Source: Candidatus Poribacteria bacterium (lineage in GTDB: Bacteria > Poribacteria > WGA-4E > WGA-3G). Taken from it: a stretch of DNA of 64,000 bases. The stretch is taken from positions 3,712,001 through 3,776,000 of the forward strand of contig OZ242029.1 of NCBI GenBank assembly GCA_965205015.1, in the 5' to 3' direction. A program made the position numbers and the translations under genes. Of the stretch, positions 2,035 to 60,885 are shown in pieces. Positions within the stretch are counted from its first letter, which is position 1; each line of letters starts with the position of its first letter. Under the pieces are notes generated by a model. The model did no database searches. It saw only the letters and a list, made by a program, of their open reading frames with translations, and was not told where the DNA came from.

Positions 2035-2276
2035 CTTTCTCACCTGCCTTTTTGCGATAATAATACAGTATCCACAAGAAAAGGTCAACAATTACTCTCC
2101 GAAAAAACAGTGCGTGAAAACAGAGATATATGGTATACTAACCAGTATATGGCAGATTTACGGGAGAATGCGTTGGAATATTTGGTTTTCATTTTTATTT
2201 GGAAGTTCCAGGAGGACCGAATGATTCTGCGATAACATATTGCGTCAAGAGAAGCGTAAATTGGAGGAATAGGGAT

Positions 2277-3110: not shown

Positions 3111-3114
3111 CATA

Positions 3115-10112: not shown

Positions 10113-10145
10113 GGTCAAACTCCCTTTTAAGGGTTATCAGTTGTT

Positions 10146-25225: not shown

Positions 25226-27054
25226 TCTGCTTCCTCCTTGTTTTCTGATTTGACTTTATCTTTCATTTGAAGATGGAACCGGTCACAAATCAATATTTGT
25301 CCGAATCCCTCTTCACGTCGATTGCCGATGCCGATACTTTCGAGTGTTTGCAGTTCAGGCAGCCAAGTGTCAATGTCTGGCGTATGAAATACAAAGACAC
25401 TTCCCATACGAGTGCCAAGGTCTACTTCTTTTGGCAACCCCCATACCGCGTTCCACCCACTGACATAATCGTAACTCGCAAAACTGCGAATGAGTGTTAC
25501 CTCAGCCTTACAATCTGCTATCTTTTGAAGCATCGGTGCAGTGAGAACCATGCTCCGTTGCCACCCATCTTCTGCTGTCAGGATGGTATCGGATTGCAAA
25601 TTAACACTGAAGTAAGTGCCCTTGAAAGCATCCATTTCGACAGTTGATAAGTGATGGTAAGCCCCCCATAACCGTTTCAACTCTTCGTTAAATTCAGAAA
25701 TACGTTCTTCTAACGAATCTCGGTCTGAAGGTTTCGTCACCTTTACGCGAATCTGTCCAAGTCCTCGGGATGTGCCGCCGCCGAGCCGCCGAACCTGCTT
25801 CTGCAAGGTATCAGCAACCTGACTTACGAGATCCGATGGAACTCGTGCGGAACCTTGCAAAGTCCCTTCTTTTTCATCTGCTGTTAACGGATCAACGGCT
25901 GTGAGGTGATAAAGTAGTTCATCCTCAGCCACTTTACGCTGTCGGTTGATTGCGACTCGGGTAAGCAATCGTGTGTTTAAGGCTCGCCTTTCATAAGATG
26001 TCCCAACATGCTCATAAAATCCGCCTTGTGATTCAACCCGTCCACTGCAGCATGGACAATTGGGCTGATACATCGATTCTGCCTTTTCTGAAACGATTCT
26101 CTCAAGAAGTGTGTCGAAAATTCCGTGTTTATCTTCATCTCCCTCTTTCAAAAATCCAGAAAAATCCTTACAACCTACAGCTGTTGCGGGTAGGACTTTT
26201 GAACCCGGATAACAGTTTCGGAAGATTCCAGCATCTTCATTGAGAAACAATTGTTGAAAATCAGCGTCAGGTTCGCTATTCTCCGAATCTGCCCGCCATA
26301 CCTTTGCAATCGCACCGCGTATTAATCCTCCGCGAATATATTGAACTGCCTCGGCTGCCTGTCCGGTAGGTTTGCGTCCACCCGGGAGAAGAGGCGATTT
26401 CAGCGTGATTTTGATCTGTAACTCAGTGAAATCACCTGGGTCTGATTTTATCGATGAAACTGTTGGCGGTCTCATCTCAAGTTCTTCTCGTTCAATATTC
26501 AGCCAACCGAGTCCACGAGATTTTCCAGTGCCTACCGCATGAATATAGTTGAGTCCTGCCCGTAGCAATTTAAGCTGATCATTTGTGATTCCACCATCAA
26601 TCGTCACATTTCCAGAGAATTCAATACCGGCATTTGCCAAACTCGTCTCGATAAAATAGAGGCGTTGGTCCTCTGCGACTCGCCGCCGCCGATTGATAGT
26701 CACGCCGTTCCGAATTTCTGTTGATTCTACTACTAAATCTGTAGTCATCACCAAATCATCGATAAAAATTCTTGATTCTTGATCCGGCGCACCAAAGATC
26801 TGACAGATAACGCAGTGGTCAATTCTGCACATCGTCTCGGCACGTGGACTGTTGCACACATGTTTACCTTCCCCTCTTGCAATTGCCTCACAAGCGTGCC
26901 GCCAGATACCTTTCAGAGTTGAAGCAGGGATGTAAAGCTTCCCATCACTGGTTTTAACCGTAGACTTGTCGGCACGGATTTCACTTGAGCCGCTATCACC
27001 GATGCAGAGCGCGGTATCAATCGTCGCTGTAATTCGCCACCGTTTTTCAGTCAC
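25222..27054 (-). CDS. csx10: Cas7 (Csm3)-Cas5 (Csx10) fusion RAMP protein
   Basis: N-terminal IPASTLKG...GTGKSRGLG RAMP; then YIRGGLIRGA, LGGGTSRGLG and GIGNRREEGFG. Confidence 0.8.
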   Translation of the reverse strand: MTEKRWRITATIDTALCIGDSGSSEIRADKSTVKTSDGKLYIPASTLKGIWRHACEAIARGEGKHVCNSPRAETMCRIDHCVICQIFGAPDQESRIFIDDLVMTTDLVVESTEIRNGVTINRRRRVAEDQRLYFIETSLANAGIEFSGNVTIDGGITNDQLKLLRAGLNYIHAVGTGKSRGLGWLNIEREELEMRPPTVSSIKSDPGDFTELQIKITLKSPLLPGGRKPTGQAAEAVQYIRGGLIRGAIAKVWRADSENSEPDADFQQLFLNEDAGIFRNCYPGSKVLPATAVGCKDFSGFLKEGDEDKHGIFDTLLERIVSEKAESMYQPNCPCCSGRVESQGGFYEHVGTSYERRALNTRLLTRVAINRQRKVAEDELLYHLTAVDPLTADEKEGTLQGSARVPSDLVSQVADTLQKQVRRLGGGTSRGLGQIRVKVTKPSDRDSLEERISEFNEELKRLWGAYHHLSTVEMDAFKGTYFSVNLQSDTILTAEDGWQRSMVLTAPMLQKIADCKAEVTLIRSFASYDYVSGWNAVWGLPKEVDLGTRMGSVFVFHTPDIDTWLPELQTLESIGIGNRREEGFGQILICDRFHLQMKDKVKSENKEEAE

Positions 27055-29647: not shown

Positions 29648-29711
29648 ACGCCTCCTCCACTTTTCATTCATCCATCATGACGTGAAAGTTCCCGCTTTGT
29701 ATACTTTGAAC

Positions 29712-40124: not shown

Positions 40125-41666
40125 TTAATTAACAAAATCTCGGAGTTTTCGGCTTCGCCTGGGGTGTCTTAACTTCCGAAGTGCTTTCGCTTCAATTTGC
40201 CGGATACGTTCCCGTGTTACTTCAAAGATATTGCCGACCTCTTCAAGCGTCCGTGGATATCCATCTTCAATCCCAAAACGGAGGGAAATTACCTTTCTTT
40301 CGCGTTCATTGAGTTCGGAAAGGACTTCCTGAATCTGCTCTTTGAGTATATTCAATTCGGCTTCTTGGACAGGGGACGGGGAATCAACATCCATAATGAA
40401 AGCCCCGAGAGGGTTCTCATCCTCTTCACCGATGGGGGTGTCTAAAGAGGCGGTTTCTGGTGCGACTGCCAAAGCTTCATTGACCTTATTGGTGGAAATC
40501 CTGAGATCAGCGGCGATCTGTTCAGCTGAAGGTTCAGTGCCTAATTCCTGTAAAAGTGAGCGTTGCACCCGCCTGATTTTGTTGATCCGTTCGTGCATGT
40601 GGACGGGAATGCGGATTGTGCGTCCTTGGTCGGCGATAGCACGTGTAATCCCTTGACGAATCCACCATGTGGCGTACGTGCTAAATTTATATCCGCGCTG
40701 ATAATCGAATTTGTCCACTGCCCGCATCAAGCCGATGTTCCCCTCTTGGATTAAATCGAGAAATTCGAGTCCCGATGCCCGGTGTCTATGTTTCTTGGCA
40801 ATGTTGATAACCAGTCGGAGGTTGGCTTCAACCATCGCCATTTTTGCGCCTTGTGCCTCGGATTCACCCTTGTCAATCTGCTGTGTGAGTGCCTTGAGTT
40901 GTTCCCTCGGGACTCCAATTTCGGTCATGTGCTGCCGGATATTACGTTGTAACCGAACGATGTTTACGTAGGCGGCTTTTACGGCATCGTTTTTAAACTG
41001 ACGATCCGTCCCGTTACTTCCGTTGAGCCATTCGTTCGGGATATCATGTGTCTGCTGAAGGTGCTGGATTTCATTTTCCCAAGTGCTGATCTGAGACTCG
41101 GCTTGCTTGACGAGATCAGAAATTTTGCTAATTTCCTCTCGATCAATCTTAAGTTCCTCAAGCGTCTTAATGAGATTGGTACGGGTTTTCGATTTCGCAG
41201 CGGTTTCCCCCCCATTTTTAGCAGTAGAAGTCGGGACAGCAGCGAGACGTTCCATCTCGAAGTTTTCAAGTACGACCAACGCTTTCTTGACCTGTTCGCG
41301 TAATTTGCGTTCCTTATTCTGTGTTGAGGAGTTCGAAACAGACTTATCAATAATATCAGAGGCACGCTTTTTAGCCGTGACGATTTTATAGAGAAGTTTC
41401 CGAACTTCAGTAATAGCGAGGGGTGTGCCGAAGGTTGCTTCATGAGCCGTCCGATGTCCTGCCTCAATCTGTTTAGCGAGTTCCACCTCTTGTTCCTTAT
41501 CAAGGAGGTCAAATTTCCCCATCTCGCGCATGTACACCTTCACGGAATCGTCGGTGTAATTTGTGCCAGTTGCAACGATTTCTCCCATTTCATCTTCGTA
41601 TCCGGGTTCATCGTTGCTCTCGGTATCCAGGTAATCAAGGGTAGGATGATCTTTGAAATCCACCAT
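40125..41666 (-). CDS. rpoD: RNA polymerase primary sigma factor
   Basis: [56 protein letters not shown]...[10 protein letters not shown]. Confidence 0.96.
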
Positions 41667-43504
41667 CAACTTCCTCCTTCATTTGGGGTTTCCTCGTGAG
41701 TGTCCACGATATCGCGATTATATAAGGCTCGTCTTTGGTTAGAGAGTTTCACCGATTCCTCAAGGATTTCCCTGTCATCTGTTCCCTCAGCACGTGCGTG
41801 CGAGCGAACACGCTGTTCAAGATCTCGCAAGAGGAAATGCCGTAGTTTTTTTAGGCATCCTTCCACCCGGGACTGTAGTAGCTTCGGTGGAAGTGTTCTT
41901 CGTAGAATGACACTTGAAATAAACGCGCTGAGTTTTTCGTCGGGGCATTCATTAATGAGGGTCTGGATATCTACGTTCTTATCGTCCGTACAAGATTCCC
42001 AGAGCAATTGTGCAATTCTACCAAAATGAGGTTCTGTGAAACTCTGATAGTCAAATTGAGATTTGACATAGGCAATTAACGTTGGACTTTGGATTAATGC
42101 TTCAATCAATTGACGTTCGATTTGTGCGCGGGGTGTCAATCGTTGGTTATTTGCCTTGGTTTGTCTCTGCCGACTGGGAGCGAGGGGTTCCTTGAATCCC
42201 ACATCTCGCAATTCCTGCCAAAATGCCGACGCCTCCACATGGAGTTCCCGTGCGGCATATTTGATGTATTCGCTCCGCTCTACCTGATTCTTGAGGTTTA
42301 TGAGCGTCTCAACAACCTCTTTGACAACCTGTGTTTTCACATCAACCCGATGAATGTCTTGCCGTTGGATAGCGGCTTGAATCTGAAATTCGATGAGATT
42401 TATTGCTTTGTCCGTGAGTTCTGTGAACGCGGCGGCTCCGTGTTGTCGCGTAAAGGAATCCGGATCTTCGCCTGTAGGTAACAGGGCAATGCGTACCCGC
42501 AACCCTTCTGTGAGGAGTCGGTGTAGTCCACGTTGTGCGGCTTGGAAACCTGAGACATCTCCGTCGTAGACAATGATAACTTCGGGCGCAAACCGCTTCA
42601 ATAATTTTGCATGATTTTCGCTCAGCGAGGTACCAGAGGACGCGACTACATTTTCAATCCCGGACTGAAAAAGCATCAAAACGTCCATATACCCCTCTAC
42701 AAGAAGGACATGTTGCTTTTTATAGATAGATTGGCGTGCTTTGTCGAGGTTGTAAAGGATATTACTTTTATCATATAGAACTGTCGCGGGAGAATTTAGA
42801 TACTTCGGTTGATGTTCTTCAGAGAGTGAGCGTCCCCCAAAACCAACGGGAATCCCGCGTTCATTGTAAATCGGGAAAAGGACCCTATTCCAAAATCGAT
42901 CCTGTGGACCTCGATCTTCATCCTTAATCAGTCCGGCATCAATAAGTTGCTGTATCGTAAATCCTTTATCTGTTGCGACTTTAATAAGATCGCGTCGCGC
43001 AGACTGTGCGTAGCCCAGCTGGAAGGACCGGAGCGTTTTCAATTGGACGCCTCGATGCTTGAGATACTGCATCGCTGATGCCCCCGCTCTATCAATCAGA
43101 AGTTGGTTGTGGTAGTATTCCACAGCAAACCGGTTGAGGTCTTCCAAAGTTGTGAACCGTTTTCGGCTCGCGCTCCCCTGACCCTCTCGATTCGGAAGGT
43201 CAATATTCAGCCGACTCGCTAACCACTCCAGCGTCTCCATGAAGTTTTTACCTTCATGCTTTTGCACAAAAGAGATGACATTTCCCCCCGTTTGACATCC
43301 AAAACAGTAGAACATCTGCTTTTGCGGTGAGACCGTGAAGGAGGGTGTTTTTTCATCGTGGAACGGGCAGAGTCCCTTGTAATCTCGACCGGCAGGACGC
43401 AGCGCGACACCACATTCGGAGATGACTTCAACAATATCGCTTCGGCTCTGGATCTCATCAATTGTTTCGCGTGGCACAGTGCCTCTTGCCTGCGGGGTGT
43501 TCAT
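41666..43504 (-). CDS. dnaG: DNA primase
   Basis: [15 protein letters not shown] zinc finger, KYLNSP, VEGYMDV, YDGD, GEDPD. Confidence 0.97.
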
Positions 43505-43516
43505 GGTGAATCTGCC

Positions 43517-45934
43517 TTACTCTTTGAATGTGACGACGGTTACGCCCTCACCGCCTTGGCTGAGTGGGGCGAGCTGGTATTTGGTTACACGGGGATTCTC
43601 ACGCAATTCGTCATGAACGGCTTTTCGCAATGCGCCCGTCCCTTTGCCGTGAAGAATACGAACTGTCGGGAGACCTGCAAGATATGCGTCATCAAGATAC
43701 TTATCGGTCAAGTCTAACGCCTCTTTTACAAGCAACCCTCGAATATTCAGTTCACTACTGATTGTATTAGATTTACTATATTGAATATCAAGTACGGACG
43801 TTGAAAGATTTGATGTTTTTTGTTTTGGGTGTACGGCATCAATTTCGTGGTAGGCGGCTTGCATTTGCATATTCCCAACCAGAATGTGAAGGGGTGTTTT
43901 ACCGCGCGGTTTAATAGCGGTGACTTCTCCAAATCGGTTGAGTTTCTTGACTCTGACTTTATCGCCGACGTTAACTTTGAGTTTCGGTTGGTTAGATTGT
44001 TTTTTAGGGGGTTCCTTTTTCAACGATTTTTTAGCAGCCTCTATCTCTGAAAAAGCGTTTCGAATACTCTCTTTAGAGGCTTGTTGTTTGCGAATATCAG
44101 CGACAAGTTTCTCTACAGTTTTACGGGCGTTGGCGACGATGTCGCGAGCCTCCCGCTCCGCTTGGTGTTTTAAGGTATCCCGTTGGGTTTCAAGGGTTTG
44201 AAGGAGTTGTGTATGTTTCTGGGATGCGTCCTCAGCTTCTTGAATCTTATCGTGCAAGCGTGCGCGTTCTGTTTCTAATTCATCTTGTGTTTCCTGCAAA
44301 CGCACAAGGAGGTCTTCAACAGCCACGTTATTATTCCCTAAATGCGTTTGGGCTTCCTCAAGAATTTCAGAGGGGATTCCGAGTTGTGAGGCAATTTTTA
44401 TGGCATTGCTACTTCCGGGGATACCTATCTGGAGTCGGTAGGTCGGACGCAGTGTCGTCCAGTCAAACTCCATTGAAGCGTTTTCCATACTTTGTTGTGT
44501 ATGGGCGTACGCCTTAAGTGCGCCGTAGTGTGTCGTGACGATGGTATTCACCTGTCTTTCACCGAGCCAATCAAGGAGTGCCATACCGAGGGCTGTCCCT
44601 TCACTGGGATCCGTTCCAGCCCCGATCTCGTCCAACAACACAAGCGAATGTTCGGCGTGCTCGATTTTCCGAAGCATCTCCGCAATCTTGGTGATATGTG
44701 AAGAGAAAGTACTCAGACTCTGTTCTATGCCTTGGTCATCCCCAATGTCGGCAAAGACATGATCGAAGATAGCGACCTGACTCCCGTGTTCCGCTGGAAT
44801 ATGTAATCCGGATTGTGCCATGAGCGTCAATAGCCCGACTGTCTTGAGAACAACGGTTTTGCCCCCGGTATTCGGACCGGTGATAACCAGCGTATTGAAC
44901 GTTTTGCCGATATGAACGTTTGTCGGCACAACATTCGCTGGTAGCTCCGCGCTTGTATCCGAATCCGGATCTGACGGTCGCGCGTTCTGAAGATGGAACT
45001 CCAATAAGGGGTGCCGTGCTTCAATCAATTTGACGACGCCTCGGGTATTCAATTTCGGTTCAACAGCGTTTAACGCGAAACTAAAACGTGCCTTTGCGTT
45101 CAAAAAGTCGAATTCTGCTAACAGGTTGAGGGACAGTTCCAATTCGTGTAAGTTGTCGCGCACGCGATCGGTAAGGTCGAGGAGGATGCGTCGAATTTCA
45201 CGTTGTTCGGCTTCAGCGGTTTCATGGAGTGCGTTGTTCATCTGGACGATTTCCAAAGGCTCTACAAAAAAGGTAGCCCCGCTTGTGGATTGTCCCTGAA
45301 CCACGCCTCGAAAAGATGAACGTGCTTCCTGCTTTATTGGAATGACATACCGATTGTTTCGAGAGGTGATGACCTGCTCCTGAATTGCTTTCTGATGCGC
45401 CGGTGAACGCAGCGTCGCTTCGAGTTTTTGGTGTATATTTTCACGAAGTCGCGACAATTTCCGCCGGAGGGCGCGCAACTCAGGACTTGCGCGATCCAGC
45501 AACATTCCCTCAGCATCGATGCAATGATTGATCGCCTCGACTAACTCTGGGAACACCGGCAGGGCATCAACAATAGCAAAGAGGTTGGGAAACTCCTCTC
45601 GATCGCGTTTCTCAAAGGTACGGTGGATGTCTTCGGGAATTTGTGCGACCTTTCGGACATCAAGGAGTTCCTCAGCGTCTAAGAGTGCGCCGACCTTTGC
45701 AGCGTGGGTTAGCGATTTGCGGATATCCTTTAAACCGTTGAGTGGTATTCCACCGTGAACTTGATGAAAGAATTTCGTCTCACTGCACAACGTGAGTAGA
45801 TAGCGAATTTTATCGACATCAGAAGATGGCGCGAAGGTGTCAACACGCGCTGTTCCGAGTTGAGAAGCGGTGTATTTTTTCAGGAGTGCACGGATTTTGT
45901 CGTATTCTAATACTTTTTCAACATTGGATAGCAC
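43517..45934 (-). CDS. mutS2: Endonuclease MutS2
   Basis: ITGPNTGGKT, DIGDDQGIEQSLSTFSSH, LLDEIGAGTDP, C-terminal Smr domain HGKGTG. Confidence 0.96.
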   Translation of the reverse strand: MLSNVEKVLEYDKIRALLKKYTASQLGTARVDTFAPSSDVDKIRYLLTLCSETKFFHQVHGGIPLNGLKDIRKSLTHAAKVGALLDAEELLDVRKVAQIPEDIHRTFEKRDREEFPNLFAIVDALPVFPELVEAINHCIDAEGMLLDRASPELRALRRKLSRLRENIHQKLEATLRSPAHQKAIQEQVITSRNNRYVIPIKQEARSSFRGVVQGQSTSGATFFVEPLEIVQMNNALHETAEAEQREIRRILLDLTDRVRDNLHELELSLNLLAEFDFLNAKARFSFALNAVEPKLNTRGVVKLIEARHPLLEFHLQNARPSDPDSDTSAELPANVVPTNVHIGKTFNTLVITGPNTGGKTVVLKTVGLLTLMAQSGLHIPAEHGSQVAIFDHVFADIGDDQGIEQSLSTFSSHITKIAEMLRKIEHAEHSLVLLDEIGAGTDPSEGTALGMALLDWLGERQVNTIVTTHYGALKAYAHTQQSMENASMEFDWTTLRPTYRLQIGIPGSSNAIKIASQLGIPSEILEEAQTHLGNNNVAVEDLLVRLQETQDELETERARLHDKIQEAEDASQKHTQLLQTLETQRDTLKHQAEREARDIVANARKTVEKLVADIRKQQASKESIRNAFSEIEAAKKSLKKEPPKKQSNQPKLKVNVGDKVRVKKLNRFGEVTAIKPRGKTPLHILVGNMQMQAAYHEIDAVHPKQKTSNLSTSVLDIQYSKSNTISSELNIRGLLVKEALDLTDKYLDDAYLAGLPTVRILHGKGTGALRKAVHDELRENPRVTKYQLAPLSQGGEGVTVVTFKE

Positions 45935-52367: not shown

Positions 52368-55010
52368 ATGAAACGATTGATGCCGTTACGACTCATCGTT
52401 AGTATTGGGCTTATCGGTGCGGTTTTCTGCCAAGAAATTTTTGCCCAAGAAAACGCCGCTACTCGAAGGATGACAGCGACCCTATCCGGGAGTGTTATCT
52501 GGGAGGGGCATGACCTCTCCCACACGAGTGTCTCAGTCTACAGAGATGAGGCACTCAAAGTGTTGTATACCAGCGGGATTCCACAGCTCGGCGATGGGCG
52601 ATTCACGATTCGCGTTGAGCCGGGGCGCTACTATATCGTTGCCTACGTTGATGTAGATAAATCGGGGCAATTTGATGCGAGCGACGGTTTGGGTATCCTC
52701 GGTATCTCCGATTGGAACGACCAAGGGCAAGGGTACCAGTTAATTGCGGTAGATAACGGACAGAAGGTTCAGGGTTTAGAGATTCCGATAACGGCGCGTG
52801 CGGCACGTATTAAAGGGGAACTCAAAATTGTTTCAACTTCTCAATATGAACCGAGTCAACTCCAGCAATTCCAGACGGCTTTGCGGACCGCAACATCTGG
52901 GTGTCGCGGTTCACTCAAGTTAGGTCAAGGTCCTGTGAATCCGCAAGCCGGCCTTGGAAACCGAAAGGCATTGATTCTGGCGTATACGGATCTATCTTGG
53001 AAATATCGTGCAGGTATCGCCCCAGTGACGGATACAGGCGCGTGGGCGTTGAACCTGCTCCCAGGGAAGTATTACCTGATGGCGATTGTGGACAACAATA
53101 ACACGAACAAATTGGATACGGGTGATGACTTCGGGTTCTACGGTGTCGAAGATATGCGGAAGCGCGGCGAATTCCCTGAACCCGTGCTCATCTCACCGAA
53201 CAAGTTCACTGAAGATATTGAGATAGCGATTACGGCAACCTATCAGACACGTAGACGGACGGCGGCCGAAAATACGAGTATATTGACGGGACATGTATCG
53301 CTACCTGAAGATGCAACGGCACGTGTTGAAGTATACGCTGAACCTGCCCTCGTCACACCGGTTGCGAGCGGCGAAACAGCGGCTGGCGGTATATTCCGCA
53401 TCGCACTTCCGCCGGGGGAATACTACGTTATCGTTAATTCTGATGCAGATAAAAACGGTAGATACAGTGAAGGCGACGGCTTGGGCGGTTATGGGACAGT
53501 GGACATCACGACACAACCCCCGGCTCCGATCGTCCTTATGGAGGGCGAGAACCGAGACATCGAACTTGTGATAAGCGCGCGTTACGACACCAACGGACAC
53601 CTTCACGCGGCACCCCCCGGCATTGAAACACATATCGAACAGGGCAGGATCGCAGGACGCATAACGTGGGATGGGCATTCCGTTCAACAGGGCATTTTGA
53701 CCCTCTCTTATAGCCCCGACTTCGAGGCACCCATCGCCATGCCAATTTCTCTGAAAGGAGACGGTAATTATCAAGTGAGCGTCCTACCGGGTATCTACTA
53801 CGTTATGGCAGTGATGGATGCAAATGATGACGGAACAACGGGTATCACCGATGGGGTGGGTATCTATGGCACGCGTCGTCCTGCACGGGGTGAACCTATA
53901 GCGGTCGGTGTATTTCCCAGACAGACGACGGCACATATTGATATAGATATCCTTGCCAGTTACATCGACGAAAAGGGGAACATGGCGGAAATCGAGGACG
54001 GCGGACGTTGGGAAATCAAAAAACAGTATGGGGAACCTGAAGATATTTTTAGGCTCACTCGGAATGGACGCATGAACGAGGAGTGGAAATATTGGACAAA
54101 GGGCATCGGTTTTCTCTGGAGAGCCAACGGAGCGGGTTGGGAATTCGGTGATGAAGAGCGTTTTACGCCGAAAGATGGCATTACCGCAGCAGCGGTATCT
54201 TCAACGGGACAATTGCCGGCGCACATCTACTTTTCCTATGACGATATCATCTGGGGACTTGCCTCGGACGGAACCAATGCGCCATTGGGTGCCGGACATA
54301 ACCCATCCGTTGCGAACGATGGCACACTCATCTTTCAAGACAGGGAAGGAAACGTCATCGTCCGGAGTCGAGAGCATCTCAACGGTGCGCTGCTACTTGA
54401 CAGTCGACAGATGGCACGGGATGTGGCAATATCGCCCGATGCGGATTATGTTGCCTATGCGCGTCCTGAGTATGGAAATCGGAGTCGCGTTATCATCCGA
54501 CATATTCCGACGGAATCCGAGTTTATTGTGCCGTCAACGGCGTTACAAAGTTTTACACCGGCATGGAACAGCGACGGCACAGTGCTTGCTTACGTCACAG
54601 CGGGAACAATCGAAAATCCGGATGCCGAAAGACACGCTCGGAACATTTACGCTTTTGACCAAGTGACAAAAAGCGTAGAGCCGATTGTGGTGTCCCCTGC
54701 TGATGATACGGAACCGACATGGTCCCCCGCGAATCCGAACCAATTGGCGTTTACGAGAACAGAAGGCACCTATCCCCAGGTCTGGCTCATGACCTACTCA
54801 GATGTAGGGGAACCGACGGAGCGGCAGTTAACGCAAAAAGGTGGCTCGCATCCGGTGTGGGTGCCGCCGGAGGGACGCTGGATCCTCTACGAGAATAATG
54901 GACAACTCTGGCAGATTGATACGCAGAATCCGGAAACAACTGAAGCACCGATGATGTCCAACGGACAGGTTGTGTTTGGGCACGAACCCGCGGTTTTAGA
55001 TTTTAAATAA
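52368..55010 (+). CDS. Large secreted protein with four repeated beta modules and a C-terminal TolB-like propeller
   Basis: Signal peptide; four PGxYY...DxDxxG...D..G modules; PAWNSDG, PTWSP and PVW repeats. Confidence 0.7.
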   Translation: MKRLMPLRLIVSIGLIGAVFCQEIFAQENAATRRMTATLSGSVIWEGHDLSHTSVSVYRDEALKVLYTSGIPQLGDGRFTIRVEPGRYYIVAYVDVDKSGQFDASDGLGILGISDWNDQGQGYQLIAVDNGQKVQGLEIPITARAARIKGELKIVSTSQYEPSQLQQFQTALRTATSGCRGSLKLGQGPVNPQAGLGNRKALILAYTDLSWKYRAGIAPVTDTGAWALNLLPGKYYLMAIVDNNNTNKLDTGDDFGFYGVEDMRKRGEFPEPVLISPNKFTEDIEIAITATYQTRRRTAAENTSILTGHVSLPEDATARVEVYAEPALVTPVASGETAAGGIFRIALPPGEYYVIVNSDADKNGRYSEGDGLGGYGTVDITTQPPAPIVLMEGENRDIELVISARYDTNGHLHAAPPGIETHIEQGRIAGRITWDGHSVQQGILTLSYSPDFEAPIAMPISLKGDGNYQVSVLPGIYYVMAVMDANDDGTTGITDGVGIYGTRRPARGEPIAVGVFPRQTTAHIDIDILASYIDEKGNMAEIEDGGRWEIKKQYGEPEDIFRLTRNGRMNEEWKYWTKGIGFLWRANGAGWEFGDEERFTPKDGITAAAVSSTGQLPAHIYFSYDDIIWGLASDGTNAPLGAGHNPSVANDGTLIFQDREGNVIVRSREHLNGALLLDSRQMARDVAISPDADYVAYARPEYGNRSRVIIRHIPTESEFIVPSTALQSFTPAWNSDGTVLAYVTAGTIENPDAERHARNIYAFDQVTKSVEPIVVSPADDTEPTWSPANPNQLAFTRTEGTYPQVWLMTYSDVGEPTERQLTQKGGSHPVWVPPEGRWILYENNGQLWQIDTQNPETTEAPMMSNGQVVFGHEPAVLDFK

Positions 55011-55091
55011 TCGCTTCTTGACCGCTTTTCACTGGGGGAGGGGTTTGTAACCCCGATTCTCTTGGAAAAACGAATTAAAAGGGGCACGCAA

Positions 55092-56399
55092 TTGAATCGT
55101 TTAAAAATCTCTGTTTTCATATTAATATTGTGTTTGATGACGGTAAACGTGGCGGGTGCGGAATGGCTGCTGATACCGATGGAGATCGGTGCACAGACGA
55201 ACCACCTCAAGGCTTACGGGCTGACGTATTGGGCATTAGAGGTTCCGCGAGAGTACCGATGCTACTGGTGGCTGAACTATCGTGGGGGCGCGTTCGTCCT
55301 ACCCGACTCGCAAGACGTGCGGATACGCGCGGCGTTGATGGGGGTGCGCTTTGAACCGATAAACCACGCCGATTACCTCAGTATAAAGGAATCTGTTCTC
55401 GAAGGTAGCAACATGGACGAGATTCTCTTGGAGAAAGCTCCCAAAATCGCTGTGTATGCGCCATCAGAGGCATCGCCCTATCGGGATCCTTGGGACGACG
55501 CGGTCAAAATCGCCTTGGATTACGCACAGATTCCGTACGACGAAATCTGGGACAAAGAGGTCCAAAACGGCGTGTTAGAAATAGAGGGATACGACTGGCT
55601 ACATCTCCACCACGAGGACTTTACAGGTCAGCACGGCAAGTTCCACGCCGCATTTTCCACACAGGTCTGGTATCAGCAGCGGATGCTGATGTTTGAAAAA
55701 GCTGCCACAGCAGCAGGATTCCAACGGGTGGCGCGGCATAAAGGGCAGACGGCACAGATGATCTCAGACTATATCGTCAATGGTGGGTTTATTTTCGCCA
55801 TGTGTTCTGCCCCAGAAACCCTTGACATTGCTCTGGCGACACACGGTGGCGCAATCGATATCGTTGCGCCTGAATTGGATGGGACCCCGATTGATTCGGA
55901 TGCCCAGACGCGGCTCGACTTTCAGCGTACTTTGGCGTTTGAAAAATTTAGCCTTTACACGAACCCATACCGATACGAATTCTCGGACATAGACAACCCG
56001 AATCCTGATCGGGATGCCCAGAGCGGGGTCGAGGATTTCAAGCTCTTTGAGTTTGCCGCAAAGCACGACCCGATCCCAACGATGCTCACGCAGAATCACG
56101 TAAGTGTCGTGCCGGGGTATCTCGGACAGACGACATCGTTTAATATGGACAAGATTCGTGGCTCTGTCACCATCTTAGGGCAGGTGGAAGGTAGCAACTA
56201 CGCAAAATACATCCACGGCAAATTAGGGAAGGGAACCTTTACGTTCCTCGGTGGACACGATCCGGAGGATTACCGTCATCTTGTCGGTGAGGGAAAAATA
56301 CCGACGAATCTTGATCTGCACAAACATTCCCCCGGTTACAGGTTAATCCTGAATAATATCCTATTTCCGGCGGCGCGAAAGAAACCGCAGAAGACGTGA
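55092..56399 (+). CDS. Conserved secreted protein of the family often annotated 'asparagine synthetase B' (class I glutamine amidotransferase-like)
   Basis: LIPM..QTNHLKAYG, PWDDAV, DWLHLHHEDFTGQ, FAMCSA, GGHDPEDY, SPGYRLILNN. Confidence 0.6.
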   Translation: MNRLKISVFILILCLMTVNVAGAEWLLIPMEIGAQTNHLKAYGLTYWALEVPREYRCYWWLNYRGGAFVLPDSQDVRIRAALMGVRFEPINHADYLSIKESVLEGSNMDEILLEKAPKIAVYAPSEASPYRDPWDDAVKIALDYAQIPYDEIWDKEVQNGVLEIEGYDWLHLHHEDFTGQHGKFHAAFSTQVWYQQRMLMFEKAATAAGFQRVARHKGQTAQMISDYIVNGGFIFAMCSAPETLDIALATHGGAIDIVAPELDGTPIDSDAQTRLDFQRTLAFEKFSLYTNPYRYEFSDIDNPNPDRDAQSGVEDFKLFEFAAKHDPIPTMLTQNHVSVVPGYLGQTTSFNMDKIRGSVTILGQVEGSNYAKYIHGKLGKGTFTFLGGHDPEDYRHLVGEGKIPTNLDLHKHSPGYRLILNNILFPAARKKPQKT

Positions 56400-56420: not shown

Positions 56421-58514
56421 ATGAAAACAGTTCTCGCAACGTGCAACCTGAATCAATGGAGTCTTGATTTTGAAGGGAACACGGCGCGCATCATTGAATC
56501 CATAGAAATTGCGAAAGAAGGTGGTGCTCGGTATCGGTTGGGACCGGAATTGGAGATTACGGGGTACTCCTGCGAAGACCATTTTCTGGAATTGGACACA
56601 CTTCTGCACAGTTGGGAATCACTGGCATGCATCCTTAAAAGCGGACGGACAGATGACATTCTGTGTGACATTGGGATGCCTGTTATGCATAAAAACGTCC
56701 GGTATAACTGTCGGGTTTTCGTATTAGATGGCAAGCTTCTGTTAATTCGTCCGAAGATGGTCTTGGCGAGCGATGGTAATTATCGTGAACATCGTTGGTT
56801 TACAGCATGGGAACGGGGGTGGACCACTGAACCGTATACACTTCCGCGCGAGATTGCCGAACTGACCGGACAGCGGGCGGTACCCATCGGCATCGCGGCG
56901 ATTGCCACCGCGGACACATGTTTGGCATCGGAGACCTGTGAGGAACTCTTTGTGCCGATGAGTCCACACATCCACTTCGGTAATGCGGGTGTCGAAATCA
57001 TAGCGAACGGATCAGGTTCTCACCACGAGTTACGGAAATTAGACACGCGCATCGCACTCATCAGAAACGCAAGTGCCAAAAACGGTGGGGTTTATCTCTA
57101 TGCCAACCAGCAGGGCTGCGATGGGGGTAGACTCTATTTCGACGGTTGTGCGCTGATCGCCCAGAATGGCGAGATTTTAGCGCAGGGTTCCCAATTCTCG
57201 CTCAAAGACGTAGAGGTCGTCACGGCGACGGTGGACCTCCACGACGTACGGGCATATCGTGGCGCGAAGGCGAGTCGGGCTGTACAGGCGAGCAAAATGG
57301 AACCCTTGCCACAGATAGATATTGACTTTGATTTTGGACCTGCGCACGGGAATAGGGTCCTGAACGTGAATCCAAAAATCGAGCCGCATACGCACGAACC
57401 CGAGGAAGAGATCGCCTTGGGTCCCGCCTGTTGGCTCTGGGATTATCTACGCAGATCGGGTGCGGCGGGGTATTTCATCCCGCTTTCAGGGGGTGCTGAC
57501 AGTGGTGCCGTTGCAACGCTTGTCGGTTCAATGTGTCAATTGGTGGCGAAAGCGATACGCGACACGGATGCCACGGTAATTCGCGATGTCGCGCGATGGC
57601 TGGACGCCGGTGAACCTCCGGACCTTTTCACGGATCCGCGCGTGCTTGCCAATCGGCTATTGTATACGTGCTACATCGGGACAGAGAATAGTTCTCGCGA
57701 CACCCAAAAACGCGCGAGGCAGCTTGCGGAACAGATCGGTGCCTATCATCTCAACATCAATATGGATGGACTCGTCAATGCACTGCAGAAGCTCTTTACC
57801 CGTATTACGCGGAAGACCCCTCGATTTAAGGTTGAGGGTGGTAGTTATAGAGAGAATCAGGCGCTTCAGAACATACAGGCACGGTTGCGGATGGTGCTGA
57901 GTTACCTGTTCGCGCAGATGATGCCGTGGGTGCGGAATCGGGAAGGCACGCTCCTCGTACTGGGGACGGGTAATGTTGATGAGGCATTGCGAGGTTACTT
58001 GACAAAATATGATTGCAGCAGCGGGGACATCAACCCGATCGGTGGGATTAGCAAACACGACTTACGCCGATTCCTGAATTGGGCTAAAGGTAACCTCGGT
58101 TATACGGTGCTCTCGGAAATTGTTGATGCACCACCGACAGCAGAACTGGAACCGATAACCGAAACCTATACGCAAACCGATGAAGATGATATGGGGATGA
58201 CTTACGCCGAATTGAGCCGTTTCGGTCAACTCCGAAAAATGGAGCAGTGCGGTCCTGTCAGTATGTTTGAAAAATTGGTACAGGAATGGGACCATCTGCC
58301 ACCGCACGAGGTTGCCGAGAAGGTCAAACGGTTCTTTAGGTACTACTCCATCAATCGACACAAAATGACGACGCTAACACCCTCCTATCATGCTGAATCT
58401 TATTCACCAGACGACAATCGCTTTGACCTGCGGCAGTTCCTCTACAATGTCCAATGGACGTGGCAGTTCAGACGTATCGATGCCTATGTTAAGAAGTTGG
58501 AGGCGGAGGTGTGA
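56421..58514 (+). CDS. nadE: Glutamine-dependent NAD+ synthetase, eukaryote-like
   Basis: Nitrilase domain ([18 protein letters not shown]) plus synthetase domain ([31 protein letters not shown]). Confidence 0.95.
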
Positions 58515-60112
58515 TGCAGCTGACTTCACAAAACAAAAAGGGAGAGATGGAAGGATGGAAGGATGGAAGAAAGGTGTCCCCAATTTTCCACCCTTCCACC
58601 CTTCCAATCTTTCTCTTGGCGTTCATGGTTATGCTGAGCACGGCGTTCGGGGCACCCGATGTTCCGTTGAATTTAGATGGTTGGGTGGCTGAGGCACTCG
58701 CGAAGTTGGAAACCGATGGTATCACAGGTGGGTTCCATCGACACACGGCACCGCTTTCAAGAGCAGACGTGGCAGCGGCGATACGACAGGCTGAATCGCG
58801 CATTCGCAGCGACGGTGTCGTTCTGTCAACGATAGATCGGAAACTCTTAGAAAAATTGAAACGGGAATTCGCGAAAGAACTCAGGGTTCACGACGGAGGG
58901 CGGATGCGATTCCTGCCACAACTTCGGATGATTGAAGAAAAAGCGGCTCCGGCGTTTGAATGGGGATTTCACTATACACTTGGGCAACTCGAAAAACGAG
59001 AAGCACCGCGTCTAACCCTCTACTCTGAATTTGAGGGACATAACTTTGAGAGTCCACCCCTGGACGGGAAGACAGCGGGTCAACGCCTTGAACGCTGGCG
59101 TGGAGACTACACTGGCGACTTCAAGAGAGGGTATCTCCAGGTCAATAGCGTACACCTCGATCTACTTGTCGGTAGAGATTGGCTTTTCTGGGGTGCGAGT
59201 CCATACAAAACGGTCGGCATCTCCGATCACTCGCCACCGTTTGACCAGGTCCGACTCACCAGTAGACTCGGAAAACGACTCAAGGCGACGGCTTTCACGG
59301 CACAACTCGATTCAACGTGGTACGATGATGGAGAAAAACGCTATCTCGCGAAACGTTATATCAGCGGACATCGACTCGATTACCAATTCAACGATCGCGT
59401 GGAAATCGGTGTTGCGGAGTGGATACTTTACGGTGGCGATGCCCAGACGCTTGAATGGAAATATGCAAACCCGATCACCCTCTATTATGCGCTACAATAT
59501 AATGCCAAAGCGGACGACAACGTTATGTTCGCCCTTGATGCGGCGATCCGACCGATTGATGGGGTGCGTTTGTATGGTGAATGGGTCATTGACGATATCC
59601 AATACGTTCCCGGTGCGAACGATCCACATGCAGTGGCGTGGCTTTTAGGGGCGACTTGGTATCCGCAATACTTGGGTCGGCACCTCGGAATTCACAGCGA
59701 ATACGCACGCGTCAACCGGTGGGCTTACACGCATTTGGTGCCGGATAATCAGTTCACACACTTCGGCTACGCAATCGGACATCCAATCAGCACGGATTCG
59801 GATACAGTCCGATTTTCAGCCACCTATCAATTGACTGTCTCCGTCGATGCAGAGATTGGCGCTGCGTTCACCCGGCAGGGAGAAGGCACAATCGCAGATC
59901 GGTTTTATGGGGAAGACTTCAGGGGGCTTCCCTTTCCGACGGGTGTTGTTGCAAGAACAACAGAAATTGGTGGGCGGTTCTCCTATCGTCCATTGAATGG
60001 ATGGAATGCCTCGTTCTTATACGTATGGCACTACACGCAGAATGCTGAGCATCGTAAAGGGATGACGCACCAAGAGCATCGGCTGGCGATTCAGATGGGG
60101 TATCTGTTTTAA
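58514..60112 (+). CDS. Capsule assembly Wzi family outer-membrane protein
   Basis: GRDWLFWG, SDHSPP, GHRLD, YGEWVIDD, GHP...DS; ends in Phe. Confidence 0.7.
   Translation: MQLTSQNKKGEMEGWKDGRKVSPIFHPSTLPIFLLAFMVMLSTAFGAPDVPLNLDGWVAEALAKLETDGITGGFHRHTAPLSRADVAAAIRQAESRIRSDGVVLSTIDRKLLEKLKREFAKELRVHDGGRMRFLPQLRMIEEKAAPAFEWGFHYTLGQLEKREAPRLTLYSEFEGHNFESPPLDGKTAGQRLERWRGDYTGDFKRGYLQVNSVHLDLLVGRDWLFWGASPYKTVGISDHSPPFDQVRLTSRLGKRLKATAFTAQLDSTWYDDGEKRYLAKRYISGHRLDYQFNDRVEIGVAEWILYGGDAQTLEWKYANPITLYYALQYNAKADDNVMFALDAAIRPIDGVRLYGEWVIDDIQYVPGANDPHAVAWLLGATWYPQYLGRHLGIHSEYARVNRWAYTHLVPDNQFTHFGYAIGHPISTDSDTVRFSATYQLTVSVDAEIGAAFTRQGEGTIADRFYGEDFRGLPFPTGVVARTTEIGGRFSYRPLNGWNASFLYVWHYTQNAEHRKGMTHQEHRLAIQMGYLF
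58542..58616. repeat. GGAAG/CTTCC palindromic element inside a coding sequence
   Basis: (GATGGAAG)3 ... (TTCCACCC)n arms; same family as 17778-17850. Confidence 0.7.
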
Positions 60113-60213: not shown

Positions 60214-60885
60214 ATGCGGCGTAAACGGACACTTATTCTTATTCTCGCAACACTCGCTTTAATCCTCGGCCTCGGTTTGGTTATTAGCGTTCCGTTGGAC
60301 CTGCGGTTGCTTGTGCTGACCCCGAAGATGCTCAAGTATAAGGAGTTGATTCAGCGACACGCCACGAAAGAAGCATTGGACCCTCGACTGATTTGTGCCT
60401 TGATTGTGCAGGAATCTGGGTTTGACGAAAGGGCAGAAAGCGCGGTGGGCGCGCTGGGGTTGACACAATTGATGCCGACTACGGCGAAGGAACTCGGCGT
60501 GCAAGACCCGTTTGATGCGGATCAGAACATTGCGGGTGCGACGCGTCATCTACGGACGTTGTACAATGTTTTTCGAGAAAGCCCACACGAACATCGGCAT
60601 CGGTTAGTATTGGCGAGTTATAACGGAGGGCTCGGACGGGTTCGCGATGCCCAAGCACTTGTTCGTTACCATAAGGTGGGAGATCCGCTTCTCTGGGAGC
60701 CCGTGCGTGTTACGCTCAGCCAATTGACGAAACAGCACACCTCGATGCATCACGGGGTTTGGAAAGGCGACAAACCGCCCCACGGCTATTTTGAAGGTGC
60801 CAACCAGACATTGGCACACGTAGAACGGGTGATGCACTACTACGCACGCATCCGTTTCTATGAGAGGTTGCTGTTTTTCCTCTAA
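60214..60885 (+). CDS. Lytic transglycosylase (SLT domain)
   Basis: QESGF...AES.VGALGLTQLMP.TA, QNIAGA, ASYNGG. Confidence 0.88.
   Translation: MRRKRTLILILATLALILGLGLVISVPLDLRLLVLTPKMLKYKELIQRHATKEALDPRLICALIVQESGFDERAESAVGALGLTQLMPTTAKELGVQDPFDADQNIAGATRHLRTLYNVFRESPHEHRHRLVLASYNGGLGRVRDAQALVRYHKVGDPLLWEPVRVTLSQLTKQHTSMHHGVWKGDKPPHGYFEGANQTLAHVERVMHYYARIRFYERLLFFL

What the first reader, a model, noticed from the sequence alone, without database searches (positions are those of the whole stretch)
56421..58514. Eukaryote-type glutamine-dependent NAD synthetase in a bacterial operon
Seen: [94 protein letters not shown] and [28 protein letters not shown]. Established: from memory these segments closely follow human NADSYN1 and yeast Qns1 rather than typical bacterial NadE. 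The gene has no introns and overlaps the next bacterial gene (TGATG). Inference: eukaryote-to-bacterium transfer, plausible for a host-associated lineage, or a bacterial sister group of the eukaryotic enzyme.
Basis: partly seen in the sequence, partly recalled or inferred. Interest (0 to 1): 0.72.

Follow-up and report, generated by a model that had tools for sequence, protein, structure and literature searches.

The report
Eukaryote-type NAD synthetase in Poribacteria
This bacterium, from the Poribacteria lineage, makes NAD with an enzyme about 60% identical to the human and fungal version instead of the usual bacterial one; the swap happened once, long ago, in the ancestor of most Poribacteria, but the data cannot yet show whether eukaryotes or bacteria were the donor.

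Summary
ORF 56421-58514 (+, 697 aa) is an intact two-domain glutamine-dependent NAD+ synthetase. It matches human NADSYN1 end to end (920 bits). Solved bacterial enzymes score at most 227 bits, and it fails every full-length bacterial NadE model in NCBIfam. It carries the Tyr and His residues reported as eukaryote-specific.

It is not contamination. It sits in a compact bacterial gene array on a contig that also encodes DnaG, RpoD and MutS2, and the same neighbourhood recurs in 56-60 of 80 related loci.

157 of 175 genomes of the phylum carry it. 16 of the other 18 keep canonical NadE, and the 12 of those placed on a DnaG tree all fall outside one fully supported clade of carriers. The NADS and DnaG trees share the same subclades. 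This points to one ancient replacement followed by vertical descent.

A few Chloroflexota (1 of 401 sampled) carry copies that nest inside the Poribacteria copies.

The direction of the inter-domain transfer is not resolved. An AU test cannot separate "bacteria nested among eukaryotes" from "bacteria sister to all eukaryotes" (p 0.46 vs 0.54). Gene distribution favours eukaryote-to-bacterium transfer. A sponge-host donor is not supported. No report was found in the literature searched.

The parts
56421..58514 (+). Gene for a 697-aa two-domain glutamine-dependent NAD+ synthetase of the eukaryotic NADSYN1/Qns1 type
   Evidence: ORF. Human NADSYN1 6ofb 920 bits over residues 2-694. 71-94% identical proteins named Candidatus Poribacteria.
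56433..57260 (+). N-terminal nitrilase-like glutaminase domain (residues 5-280), with catalytic Glu43, Lys112 and Cys173, and the loop DGNYRE at residues 118-123
   Evidence: Pfam CN_hydrolase E 5.9e-39. Residues mapped onto human Glu45/Lys114/Cys175 through the alignment and the passages of PMC6946656. Invariant in 30 of 30 Poribacteria rows and 10 of 10 Chloroflexota-clade rows.
57432..58229 (+). C-terminal NAD synthetase (N-type ATP pyrophosphatase) domain (residues 338-603), with PP-loop SGGADS at residues 356-361 (bases 57486-57503)
   Evidence: Pfam NAD_synthase E 6.5e-28. NCBIfam domain model TIGR00552 95.3 bits, above its cut-off of 63.65. PP-loop S, G, G, D, S invariant in all 55 aligned rows.
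55062..56399 (+). Upstream same-strand ORF, 445 aa, no family match. Context only, not part of the enzyme
   Evidence: Adjacent to NADS in 57 of 80 related loci. Also present in 4 of 4 basal Poribacteria that lack this NADS.
58511..60112 (+). Downstream overlapping ORF, 533 aa, Wzi-like outer-membrane capsule assembly protein. Bacterial context
   Evidence: Pfam Caps_assemb_Wzi E 5.8e-10. Overlap GTGATG. Downstream of NADS in 60 of 80 loci.
52368..55010 (+). 880-aa ORF with DUF2141 and PD40 matches. First listed member of the conserved block
   Evidence: Present upstream in 56 of 80 loci.
60214..60885 (+). Lytic transglycosylase (SLT domain). Last member of the conserved block
   Evidence: Pfam SLT E 5.7e-24. 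Present in 47 of 80 loci.
40125..45934 (-). RpoD (40125-41669), DnaG (41666-43504) and MutS2 (43517-45934). Bacterial housekeeping genes about 13 kb from NADS, showing the contig is bacterial. DnaG was used as the species marker
   Evidence: Pfam matches. DnaG lies 14-18 kb from NADS in several complete chromosomes too (coordinates).

Best explanation
The gene encodes the cell's working, and only, NAD+ synthetase.

Mechanism, inferred from the human and M. tuberculosis enzymes:
- The N-terminal nitrilase-like domain hydrolyses glutamine with a Cys-Glu-Lys triad.
- The ammonia passes through an internal tunnel to the C-terminal PP-loop domain.
- That domain adenylates nicotinic acid adenine dinucleotide with ATP and amidates it to NAD+.
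- The enzyme probably forms an octamer with within-subunit tunnels, as the human enzyme does.

Evolution:
- It is a xenologue. In the stem of a large crown clade of Poribacteria, a NADSYN1/Qns1-type enzyme replaced the canonical bacterial NadE that basal Poribacteria still have.
- It has been inherited vertically since, and was later passed to a few Chloroflexota.
- The rest of the pathway (NadA, NadC, NadD) stayed bacterial.
- The source was most probably a eukaryote, an ancient protist and not the sponge host. That last step rests on gene distribution, not on a rooted tree.
For: Identity and integrity:
- Two Pfam domains.
- 920 bits to human NADSYN1 over the full length, against 227 bits or less for bacterial structures.
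- All five full-length or subfamily bacterial NadE models of NCBIfam fall far below cut-off, for example 153 vs 473 and 129 vs 479.
- Catalytic triad, second Glu and PP-loop are intact in 40 of 40 bacterial sequences of this type.
- Tyr123 and His203 (human numbering) are stated in PMC6946656 (passages read) to be conserved in eukaryotes, with Phe and Pro in prokaryotes. They are Tyr and His in 40 of 40, and Phe and Pro in 2 of 2 canonical basal-Poribacteria enzymes.

Sole enzyme:
- In three complete chromosomes (G001-G003) it is the only full-length PF02540 match.
- NadD, NadA and NadC are found above curated cut-offs in 5 of 5 chromosomes.

Genuine bacterial gene:
- DnaG, RpoD and MutS2 lie on the same contig.
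- GC is even, 0.51-0.53, across 54-60 kb.
- The block PD40 / 445-aa ORF / NADS / Wzi / SLT recurs in 56, 57, 80, 60 and 47 of 80 loci respectively.
- 73 of the 80 loci are titled Poribacteria, many of them 5-7 Mb chromosomes.

One replacement, then vertical descent:
- 157 of 175 genomes of the phylum carry it at 66-95% identity.
- 16 of the other 18 have canonical NadE. Those checked are PRK13981-type fused (750 bits, cut-off 479), or PRK13980 (323 bits, cut-off 255) with a separate nitrilase-like gene next to it.
- On a DnaG tree rooted on a Chloroflexota genome, 30 of 30 carriers form one clade (SH-aLRT 100) and 12 of 12 canonical genomes lie outside it. That is one change of state.
- The NADS tree recovers the same subclades.

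Secondary spread to Chloroflexota:
- Found in 1 of 401 sampled Chloroflexota and 1 of 56 genomes in the order of that genome.
- Their copies form one clade (SH-aLRT 97) inside a Poribacteria group (SH-aLRT 96).
- Poribacteria monophyly is disfavoured: delta lnL 18, p-AU 0.027.

Eukaryotic source:
- No bacterial lineage examined has the gene as an ancestral trait, whereas named animals and fungi and three EukProt sequences carry it.
- In the free ML tree the bacteria sit beside the EukProt clade, and that group is sister to fungi plus animals.
- The nearest large Atlas clusters are 97-100% Eukaryota (a lead only).
Against: Direction is not shown by phylogeny:
- The only outgroup I could obtain (canonical NadE) sits on a branch of 4.7 + 4.7 substitutions per site and joins long-branched sequences.
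- A tree forcing all 51 non-bacterial sequences to one side, which makes the bacteria sister to the rest, is as good as the free tree: lnL -64503.5 vs -64504.8, p-AU 0.54 vs 0.46.
- A count of polarised characters gave 0 sites for bacteria-basal and 1 for bacteria-derived.

Labelling is weak:
- 36 of the 51 non-bacterial rows are unnamed cluster representatives, so I cannot show that they are eukaryotes.
- The only named non-opisthokont, a Lupinus model, is a tandem of two truncated copies and useless as a label.
- The three EukProt transcripts carry no species name and could in principle be contaminants.

Other gaps:
- The distribution survey covered only two phyla in depth. The genome scan used peptides specific to this sequence, and 40 of its 120 hits were not shown.
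- The AU rejection of Poribacteria monophyly is borderline. A fuller but unfinished constrained search reached -26256.5, delta lnL 14.6, and was not AU-tested.
- Activity, glutamine use and oligomeric state are inferred, not measured.
- One crown genome (G004) also has a PRK13981-type NadE on a small extra contig.
Confidence: 0.58

Rival explanations
1. Bacterial donor or sister group. The NADSYN1/Qns1-type enzyme arose in a bacterial lineage at or near the stem of crown Poribacteria and was passed to the eukaryotic stem before the last eukaryotic common ancestor. On this reading the Poribacteria enzymes are the closest living bacterial relatives of the eukaryotic one, not a copy of it.
For: - The tree with bacteria as sister to all other sequences is not rejected and is marginally better (p-AU 0.54).
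- In that tree the long-branched sequences fall inside the rest and do not sit at the root, which looks less like a long-branch artefact.
- The bacterial sequences are short-branched and consensus-like. They score as high as real eukaryotes against a profile built only from non-bacterial representatives, and they are the best named match for many divergent representatives.
- The gene's divergence within Poribacteria is as deep as the fungus-animal split.
- De Ingeniis et al. 2012 (PMC3376133, passages read) argue that the eukaryotic branch came from bacteria.
Against: - Basal Poribacteria have ordinary PRK13981 or PRK13980 enzymes. The crown enzyme scores only 129-153 bits against such models. 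It would therefore have had to diverge enormously on one stem branch, or to have come from elsewhere anyway.
- In Chloroflexota it is sporadic.
- In the free ML tree the bacteria lie several supported nodes away from the outgroup attachment.
Confidence: 0.22
2. Third-party source. Both the eukaryotes and the Poribacteria stem obtained the enzyme from another bacterial lineage that is unsampled, or that I could not reach.
For: - The survey of prokaryotes was limited. The one genome-collection scan used peptide patterns taken from this sequence and showed only 80 of 120 hits.
- Only two phyla could be searched genome by genome.
- 36 unnamed representatives in the tree could include bacteria.
Against: - Among the 120 best of more than 5000 hits in three word-index searches, every named bacterial hit is Poribacteria or Chloroflexota.
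- The unlabelled long-contig sequences added to the tree all fall in those two clades.
- The large Atlas clusters of this family are 82-100% Eukaryota.
Confidence: 0.12
3. Recent capture from the animal (sponge) host by a symbiont.
For: Poribacteria are known mainly as sponge symbionts (recalled, not from a call). The best PDB match is an animal protein, but that is the only eukaryotic NADS in the PDB.
Against: - Animals plus fungi form a clade (SH-aLRT 98) that excludes the bacteria.
- The window protein is 64% identical to a fungus and 59-60% identical to animals.
- The gene is fixed in 157 of 175 genomes, tracks DnaG, and has a deepest split (1.45) exceeding the fungus-animal distance (1.14).
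Confidence: 0.03
4. Artefact: eukaryotic contamination or a chimeric assembly.
For: None found.
Against: - There are no introns, and the gene overlaps a Wzi-like gene.
- DnaG, RpoD, MutS2 and a type III CRISPR-Cas module lie on the same contig.
- The same locus occurs in dozens of independently assembled genomes, including complete chromosomes.
Confidence: 0.01

Closest known systems
Human NADSYN1 (PDB 6ofb), glutamine-dependent NAD+ synthetase
   Same: - Same two-domain layout and length (697 vs 706 aa), and nearly collinear: 920 bits over residues 2-694 with four small gaps.
- Same Cys-Glu-Lys triad, second Glu, Glu176 equivalent and PP-loop.
- Same Tyr123 and His203, reported as the eukaryote-specific tunnel-constriction residues.
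   Different: - Encoded in a bacterial chromosome, without introns, in a bacterial gene array.
- Leu at the position of human Tyr58, which the paper says is peculiar to the human enzyme.
- Asp for Glu120, and Gln for Lys609 (read from the alignment).
- PP-loop reads SGGADS where the human has SGGVDS.
- Oligomeric state and substrate preference are untested.
Fungal Qns1-type NAD+ synthetases (named sequences from Umbelopsis, Basidiobolus and Saitoella; yeast Qns1 itself was not compared)
   Same: 62-64% identical to the window protein over about 695 residues. That is the same level as fungus vs animal, 62-66%.
   Different: The fungal sequences form a clade with animals that excludes the bacterial sequences.
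Canonical bacterial fused NadE, PRK13981 type (NCBIfam NF010588), as in basal Poribacteria
   Same: Same reaction, and the same order of nitrilase-like and synthetase domains. The triad and PP-loop are conserved.
   Different: - About 545-590 aa. It scores 750 bits on NF010588, against 129 bits for the window protein.
- Phe and Pro at the two signature positions.
- Separated from the window's clade by about 9 substitutions per site.
M. tuberculosis NadE (3dla) and Cytophaga hutchinsonii NadE (3ilv)
   Same: Two-domain glutamine-dependent enzymes. 3ilv is the nearest solved bacterial structure, 227 bits with both domains aligned. The M. tuberculosis type is octameric like the human enzyme (PMC6946656).
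   Different: Far more distant than the human enzyme: 89 and 227 bits vs 920. The M. tuberculosis type uses between-subunit tunnels and Phe130/Pro204.

Membership tests
Eukaryotic-type (NADSYN1/Qns1) glutamine-dependent NAD+ synthetase | Fused N-terminal nitrilase-like glutaminase and C-terminal NAD synthetase domains, about 700 aa | tested here: met
   Pfam CN_hydrolase 5-280 and NAD_synthase 338-603 in a 697-aa protein.
Eukaryotic-type (NADSYN1/Qns1) glutamine-dependent NAD+ synthetase | Full-length sequence likeness to eukaryotic members well above that to any bacterial type | tested here: met
   920 bits to human vs 227 bits or less to bacterial structures. 59-64% identity to named animals and fungi.
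Eukaryotic-type (NADSYN1/Qns1) glutamine-dependent NAD+ synthetase | Glutaminase triad Cys175-Glu45-Lys114 plus Glu125 (human numbering), and the PP-loop SGGxDS | tested here: met
   C173, E43, K112, E123 and SGGADS at 356-361. Invariant in 40 of 40 bacterial sequences of the clade.
Eukaryotic-type (NADSYN1/Qns1) glutamine-dependent NAD+ synthetase | Tyr123 and His203 at tunnel constriction 1, stated to be conserved in eukaryotes where prokaryotes have Phe and Pro (PMC6946656) | tested here: met
   Y121 and H201 in the window protein. Tyr/His in 40 of 40 of the bacterial clade and all 13 eukaryote-side rows. Phe/Pro in 2 of 2 canonical enzymes. The paper's supplementary alignment could not be seen.
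Eukaryotic-type (NADSYN1/Qns1) glutamine-dependent NAD+ synthetase | Falls in the same clade as eukaryotic enzymes, apart from other bacterial NadE | tested here: met
   The canonical NadE outgroup is separated by a branch of 4.7 + 4.7. Whether the bacteria lie inside or beside the eukaryotes is unresolved.
Eukaryotic-type (NADSYN1/Qns1) glutamine-dependent NAD+ synthetase | Glutamine-dependent NAD+ synthesis, and an octamer with within-subunit ammonia tunnels | not testable with these tools
   Inferred from about 60% identity to 6ofb. No assay or complex prediction was run.
Canonical bacterial NadE equivalogs (NCBIfam NF010588, NF002730, NF010587, NF001979; subfamily NF002048) | Score above the curated whole-protein cut-off | tested here: not met
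   128.8 vs 479, 153.2 vs 473, 78.7 vs 255, 61.7 vs 250 and 27.8 vs 313. Only the domain-level model TIGR00552 passes (95.3 vs 63.65).

The most novel reading that the evidence does not exclude
The Poribacteria enzyme is not a copy of a eukaryotic gene. It is the closest surviving bacterial relative of the lineage that gave eukaryotes their NAD+ synthetase before the last eukaryotic common ancestor. That would name a concrete bacterial donor lineage, outside Alphaproteobacteria, for a universal eukaryotic core-metabolism enzyme. The AU test leaves this topology fully open.
Probability: 0.2. Interest if true: 0.8.

Novelty: new member of a known kind. Interest (0 to 1): 0.58.

Why it matters
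A universal, essential last-step enzyme of NAD synthesis has been swapped across domains of life and then fixed for a very long time in most of a bacterial phylum. The rest of the pathway stayed bacterial.

- It is a clean, datable case of single-gene xenologous displacement of a core enzyme.
- It gives a bacterial, intron-free, easily expressed stand-in for the human NADSYN1-type enzyme, with the same reported tunnel-constriction residues, for mechanistic work.
- It flags a lineage that must be included in any attempt to trace where the eukaryotic enzyme came from. Published work places that origin in bacteria (PMC3376133) without, in the passages I read, naming relatives this close.
- It shows that automatic naming as plain "NAD(+) synthase" hides this. 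No NCBIfam full-length model covers the type.

Tried and rejected
- **Own genome:** none is held for this window, so all genome-wide statements come from related genomes reached through loci.
- **Naming the unnamed cluster representatives:** The Atlas gave only coarse cluster taxa. Best-named-hit BLAST was uninformative, because the short-branched bacteria are the best match for many representatives. The one named plant, a Lupinus model, is a tandem of two truncated copies and was dropped as a label. It is present in the FastTrees only.
- **Closer outgroup:** none of five genomes searched had an M. tuberculosis-type NF002730 enzyme above cut-off. The two most divergent representatives tested are still nearer to human than to 3ilv.
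- **Rooting:** the treekit AU test with the full mixture model did not finish in four calls. I ran the test myself under PMSF on the two saved trees.
- **Polarised characters:** 0 vs 1 sites, so no signal. A PP-loop position (A/S in the bacteria, the EukProt sequences and four representatives; I in Opisthokonta and the outgroup) hints at nesting, but it is a single site and did not pass my thresholds.
- **Empty-site test:** in four basal Poribacteria the conserved 445-aa gene has different neighbours, so no pre-insertion site could be shown.
- **Fuller constrained search for Poribacteria monophyly:** unfinished.
- **Rows left out:** of the 150 representatives, 96 did not cover more than 640 residues of the query in one BLAST segment and were never used. 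Of the 54 that did, 18 were left out of the 78-row tree to save time: P0136, P0173, P0175, P0177, P0183, P0185, P0188, P0194, P0195, P0197, P0199, P0209, P0211, P0215, P0231, P0237, P0264, P0270. The DnaG and NADS trees use 42 and 30 of the 175 phylum genomes, picked to span the identity range.
- **Literature:** no paper linking Poribacteria to this enzyme was found. Searches were judged from listings only. One search found 0 papers with both "Poribacteria" and "glutamine-dependent". Subscription-journal papers and all supplements were not searchable.
- **Not run:** structure and complex prediction were judged unnecessary at about 60% identity to a solved structure. Sequencing-run tools were not used.
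Full report
**What is there.** It lies in a same-strand, tightly packed array:
- an 880-aa DUF2141/PD40 protein (52368-55010)
- a 445-aa protein with no family match (55062-56399)
- the ORF itself, after a 21-base gap
- a Wzi-like protein whose start overlaps the stop within GTGATG (58511-60112)
- an SLT lytic transglycosylase (60214-60885)

GC is even across the region (0.51-0.53). About 13 kb away the contig encodes RpoD, DnaG and MutS2, and further on a type III CRISPR-Cas module. This is a bacterial chromosome.

**What the protein is.** Pfam finds a carbon-nitrogen hydrolase domain (residues 5-280) and an NAD synthase domain (338-603).
- Against all PDB sequences, the best match by far is human NADSYN1 (6ofb): 920 bits, E 6e-276, nearly gap-free over residues 2-694.
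- The best bacterial structures reach 227 bits (Cytophaga, 3ilv), 89 bits (M. tuberculosis, 3dla) and 53 bits or less.
- All five full-length or subfamily NadE models that NCBI uses for bacteria are missed by wide margins, for example 153 vs a cut-off of 473. Only the domain-level nadE model passes.

From the passages of Chuenchor et al. 2020 that I read (PMC6946656), the human glutaminase triad is Cys175-Glu45-Lys114. The same passages say Tyr123 and His203 at the first tunnel constriction are conserved in eukaryotes, while prokaryotes have Phe and Pro. Mapping through the alignment gives C173, E43, K112, Y121 and H201 in the window protein.

An alignment of 55 sequences shows:
- The triad, the second glutamate and the PP-loop S, G, G, D, S are invariant in all rows.
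- Tyr/His is present in 30 of 30 Poribacteria rows, 10 of 10 Chloroflexota-clade rows and all 13 eukaryote-side rows.
- Phe/Pro is present in 2 of 2 canonical enzymes from basal Poribacteria.

So the enzyme looks fully functional and, residue by residue, of the eukaryotic kind.

**Whose gene it is.**
- The closest database proteins (71-94% identical) are named Candidatus Poribacteria wherever a name exists, and they sit on contigs of up to 6 Mb.
- A scan of one genome per prokaryotic species found 120 relatives and showed 80. Of these, 73 are titled Poribacteria, 4 "uncultured bacterium" and 3 Chloroflexota.
- The block PD40 / 445-aa ORF / NADS / Wzi / SLT is present in 56, 57, 80, 60 and 47 of those 80 loci. 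That includes lineages whose NADS is only 68-74% identical. None of the three Chloroflexota loci share it.
- Contamination and chimerism are therefore excluded.

**Distribution and history inside the phylum.**
- 157 of 175 genomes of the phylum carry the gene at 66-95% identity.
- Of the 18 without it, 16 have canonical NadE with PF02540 scores of 186-281 bits, against about 100 bits for this type. Two examples were classified. One is a PRK13981 fused enzyme (750 bits, cut-off 479). The other is a PRK13980 single-domain enzyme (323 bits, cut-off 255) with a separate nitrilase-like gene directly upstream, the clustered two-subunit form described by De Ingeniis et al. (PMC3376133, passages).
- In three complete chromosomes the eukaryote-type gene is the only full-length NAD synthase match. 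One crown genome has an extra PRK13981 gene on a small contig.
- A DnaG tree of 43 genomes (IQ-TREE, LG+C20 PMSF, short search, rooted on a Chloroflexota genome) places all 30 carriers, the window included, in one clade with SH-aLRT 100. All 12 canonical-NadE genomes lie outside it, so the tree needs one change of state.
- The NADS tree for the same genomes recovers the same subclades.
- NadA, NadC and NadD of ordinary bacterial type are present in 5 of 5 chromosomes tested.

The simplest reading is a single replacement of the last-step enzyme in the stem of a large crown clade, followed by vertical descent.

**Chloroflexota.** Only the centre genome among 401 evenly sampled Chloroflexota has the gene, and only 1 of 56 genomes in its order. 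The Chloroflexota sequences, plus three unlabelled ones that cluster with them, form one clade (SH-aLRT 97) inside a Poribacteria group (SH-aLRT 96). Forcing Poribacteria to be monophyletic costs 18 lnL units (p-AU 0.027). A fuller, unfinished constrained search had reached a cost of 14.6 units, so I call this rejection borderline. Together with the distribution, it points to transfer from Poribacteria into a few Chloroflexota.

**Relation to eukaryotes.**
- An exhaustive HMMER search of 1.84 billion cluster representatives returned nothing above 59% identity. At 50% clustering, the Poribacteria sequences are absorbed into a cluster led by an animal-like protein, which scores 1082 bits to human.
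- A profile built from 17 non-bacterial representatives retrieved named animals, early-diverging fungi, Poribacteria and Chloroflexota at the same score level.
- The window protein is 64% identical to the fungus Umbelopsis and 59-60% identical to fish, amphioxus and a mollusc. The fungus is 62-66% identical to those animals.
- In a 78-row tree the 25 bacterial rows form one clade (SH-aLRT 84). It lies next to three unnamed EukProt transcripts plus P0134 (SH-aLRT 95) and two pairs of unnamed representatives. That whole group (88) is sister to fungi plus animals (98).
- The nearest relatives of EukProt sequence P0357 in the 5.8-billion-protein index are the bacteria themselves (65-70%) and the two other EukProt sequences (66-67%).

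**Why the direction stays open.** The only outgroup I could get, canonical NadE, hangs on a branch of 4.7 + 4.7 substitutions per site and attaches among the longest ingroup branches.
- The best tree with all 51 non-bacterial rows held on one side has lnL -64503.5. The free tree has -64504.8. The AU p-values are 0.54 and 0.46. In the constrained tree the long branches move inside.
- A count of polarised characters gave 0 against 1.
- 36 of the 51 non-bacterial rows are unnamed, and my attempts to name them failed.

So phylogeny alone cannot say whether the bacteria are nested among eukaryotes or sister to them.

**Why I still lean towards a eukaryotic source (about 0.6).** Inside Bacteria the trait traces back to one stem branch of one phylum, whose basal members have ordinary enzymes, plus sporadic secondary carriers. 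No bacterial lineage I could examine has it as an ancestral state. On the eukaryotic side it is present in named animals and fungi and in EukProt sequences, and from established knowledge it is the universal eukaryotic form. A bacterial origin would need the crown-Poribacteria stem to have remodelled a PRK13981/PRK13980-type enzyme almost beyond recognition, or an unseen third lineage.

A sponge-host donor is not supported. The bacteria do not group with animals, and the deepest split of the gene within Poribacteria (1.45) exceeds the fungus-animal distance (mean 1.14) on the same tree. If rates are comparable, which is an assumption, the transfer is older than sponges.

**Novelty.** The proteins are in public databases, named "NAD(+) synthase" or "glutamine-dependent NAD(+) synthetase". 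I found no paper that reports the eukaryotic affinity, the phylum-wide replacement or the Chloroflexota spread. Searches were judged from listings, and one search returned 0 papers. Supplements and subscription journals were not searchable. It is a known enzyme type in an unexpected domain, with a well-resolved history inside the recipient phylum and an open, testable question about its ultimate origin.

Noticed in passing
window 55062-56399 (+): A 445-aa protein with a hydrophobic N-terminal stretch and no Pfam or PDB match, even at E 1. It is as conserved as NADS: 71-97% in 57 of 80 loci, and 58-67% in 4 of 4 basal Poribacteria. It is absent from the Chloroflexota genome tested. This looks like a phylum-wide, strongly constrained protein of unknown function.
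   Followed up: partly
window 25222-29671 (-): A type III CRISPR-Cas module: a Cas10/Cmr2 palm-domain protein (27047-29671) and a RAMP protein (25222-27108).
   Followed up: no
window 8601-10118 (-): A 505-aa protein combining a PhyH dioxygenase-like region with many HEAT/Armadillo-type repeats, which is a eukaryote-like repeat architecture.
   Followed up: no
P0357, P0381, P0398 (EukProt transcripts, no species name): Three transcriptome-derived proteins form a clade (SH-aLRT 99). They are about as close to the bacterial clade (65-70% for P0357) as to each other (66-67%), and they have no closer relative in the 5.8-billion-protein index. They are either the nearest eukaryotic relatives of the bacterial enzyme or an unrecognised further carrier lineage.
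   Followed up: partly
L092 (G017:C2) 553-2274: A basal Poribacteria genome has the clustered two-subunit form: a 283-aa nitrilase-like gene directly followed by a 288-aa PRK13980 NadE. Other basal genomes have the fused PRK13981 form, and some have both a single-domain and a fused gene.
   Followed up: partly
L162 (G004:C5) 1300-3135: A crown Poribacteria assembly that carries the eukaryote-type gene on its 7 Mb chromosome also has a PRK13981-type NadE (720 bits) on a small extra contig. It could be a plasmid, a second gene or bin contamination.
   Followed up: no
window residue 359 (bases 57495-57497): The fourth PP-loop position is Ala or Ser in all 40 bacterial rows, the 3 EukProt rows and 4 unnamed representatives. 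It is Ile in 6 of 6 fungi and animals and in 2 of 2 canonical NadE (the human enzyme has Val). This is a possible shared derived character, but it is a single site.
   Followed up: partly
P0088 (Lupinus angustifolius model, 1201 aa): The plant entry that appears among the top hits is a tandem of two truncated NADS copies (residues about 1-640 and 687-1163). It is probably a gene-model artefact or a local duplication.
   Followed up: partly
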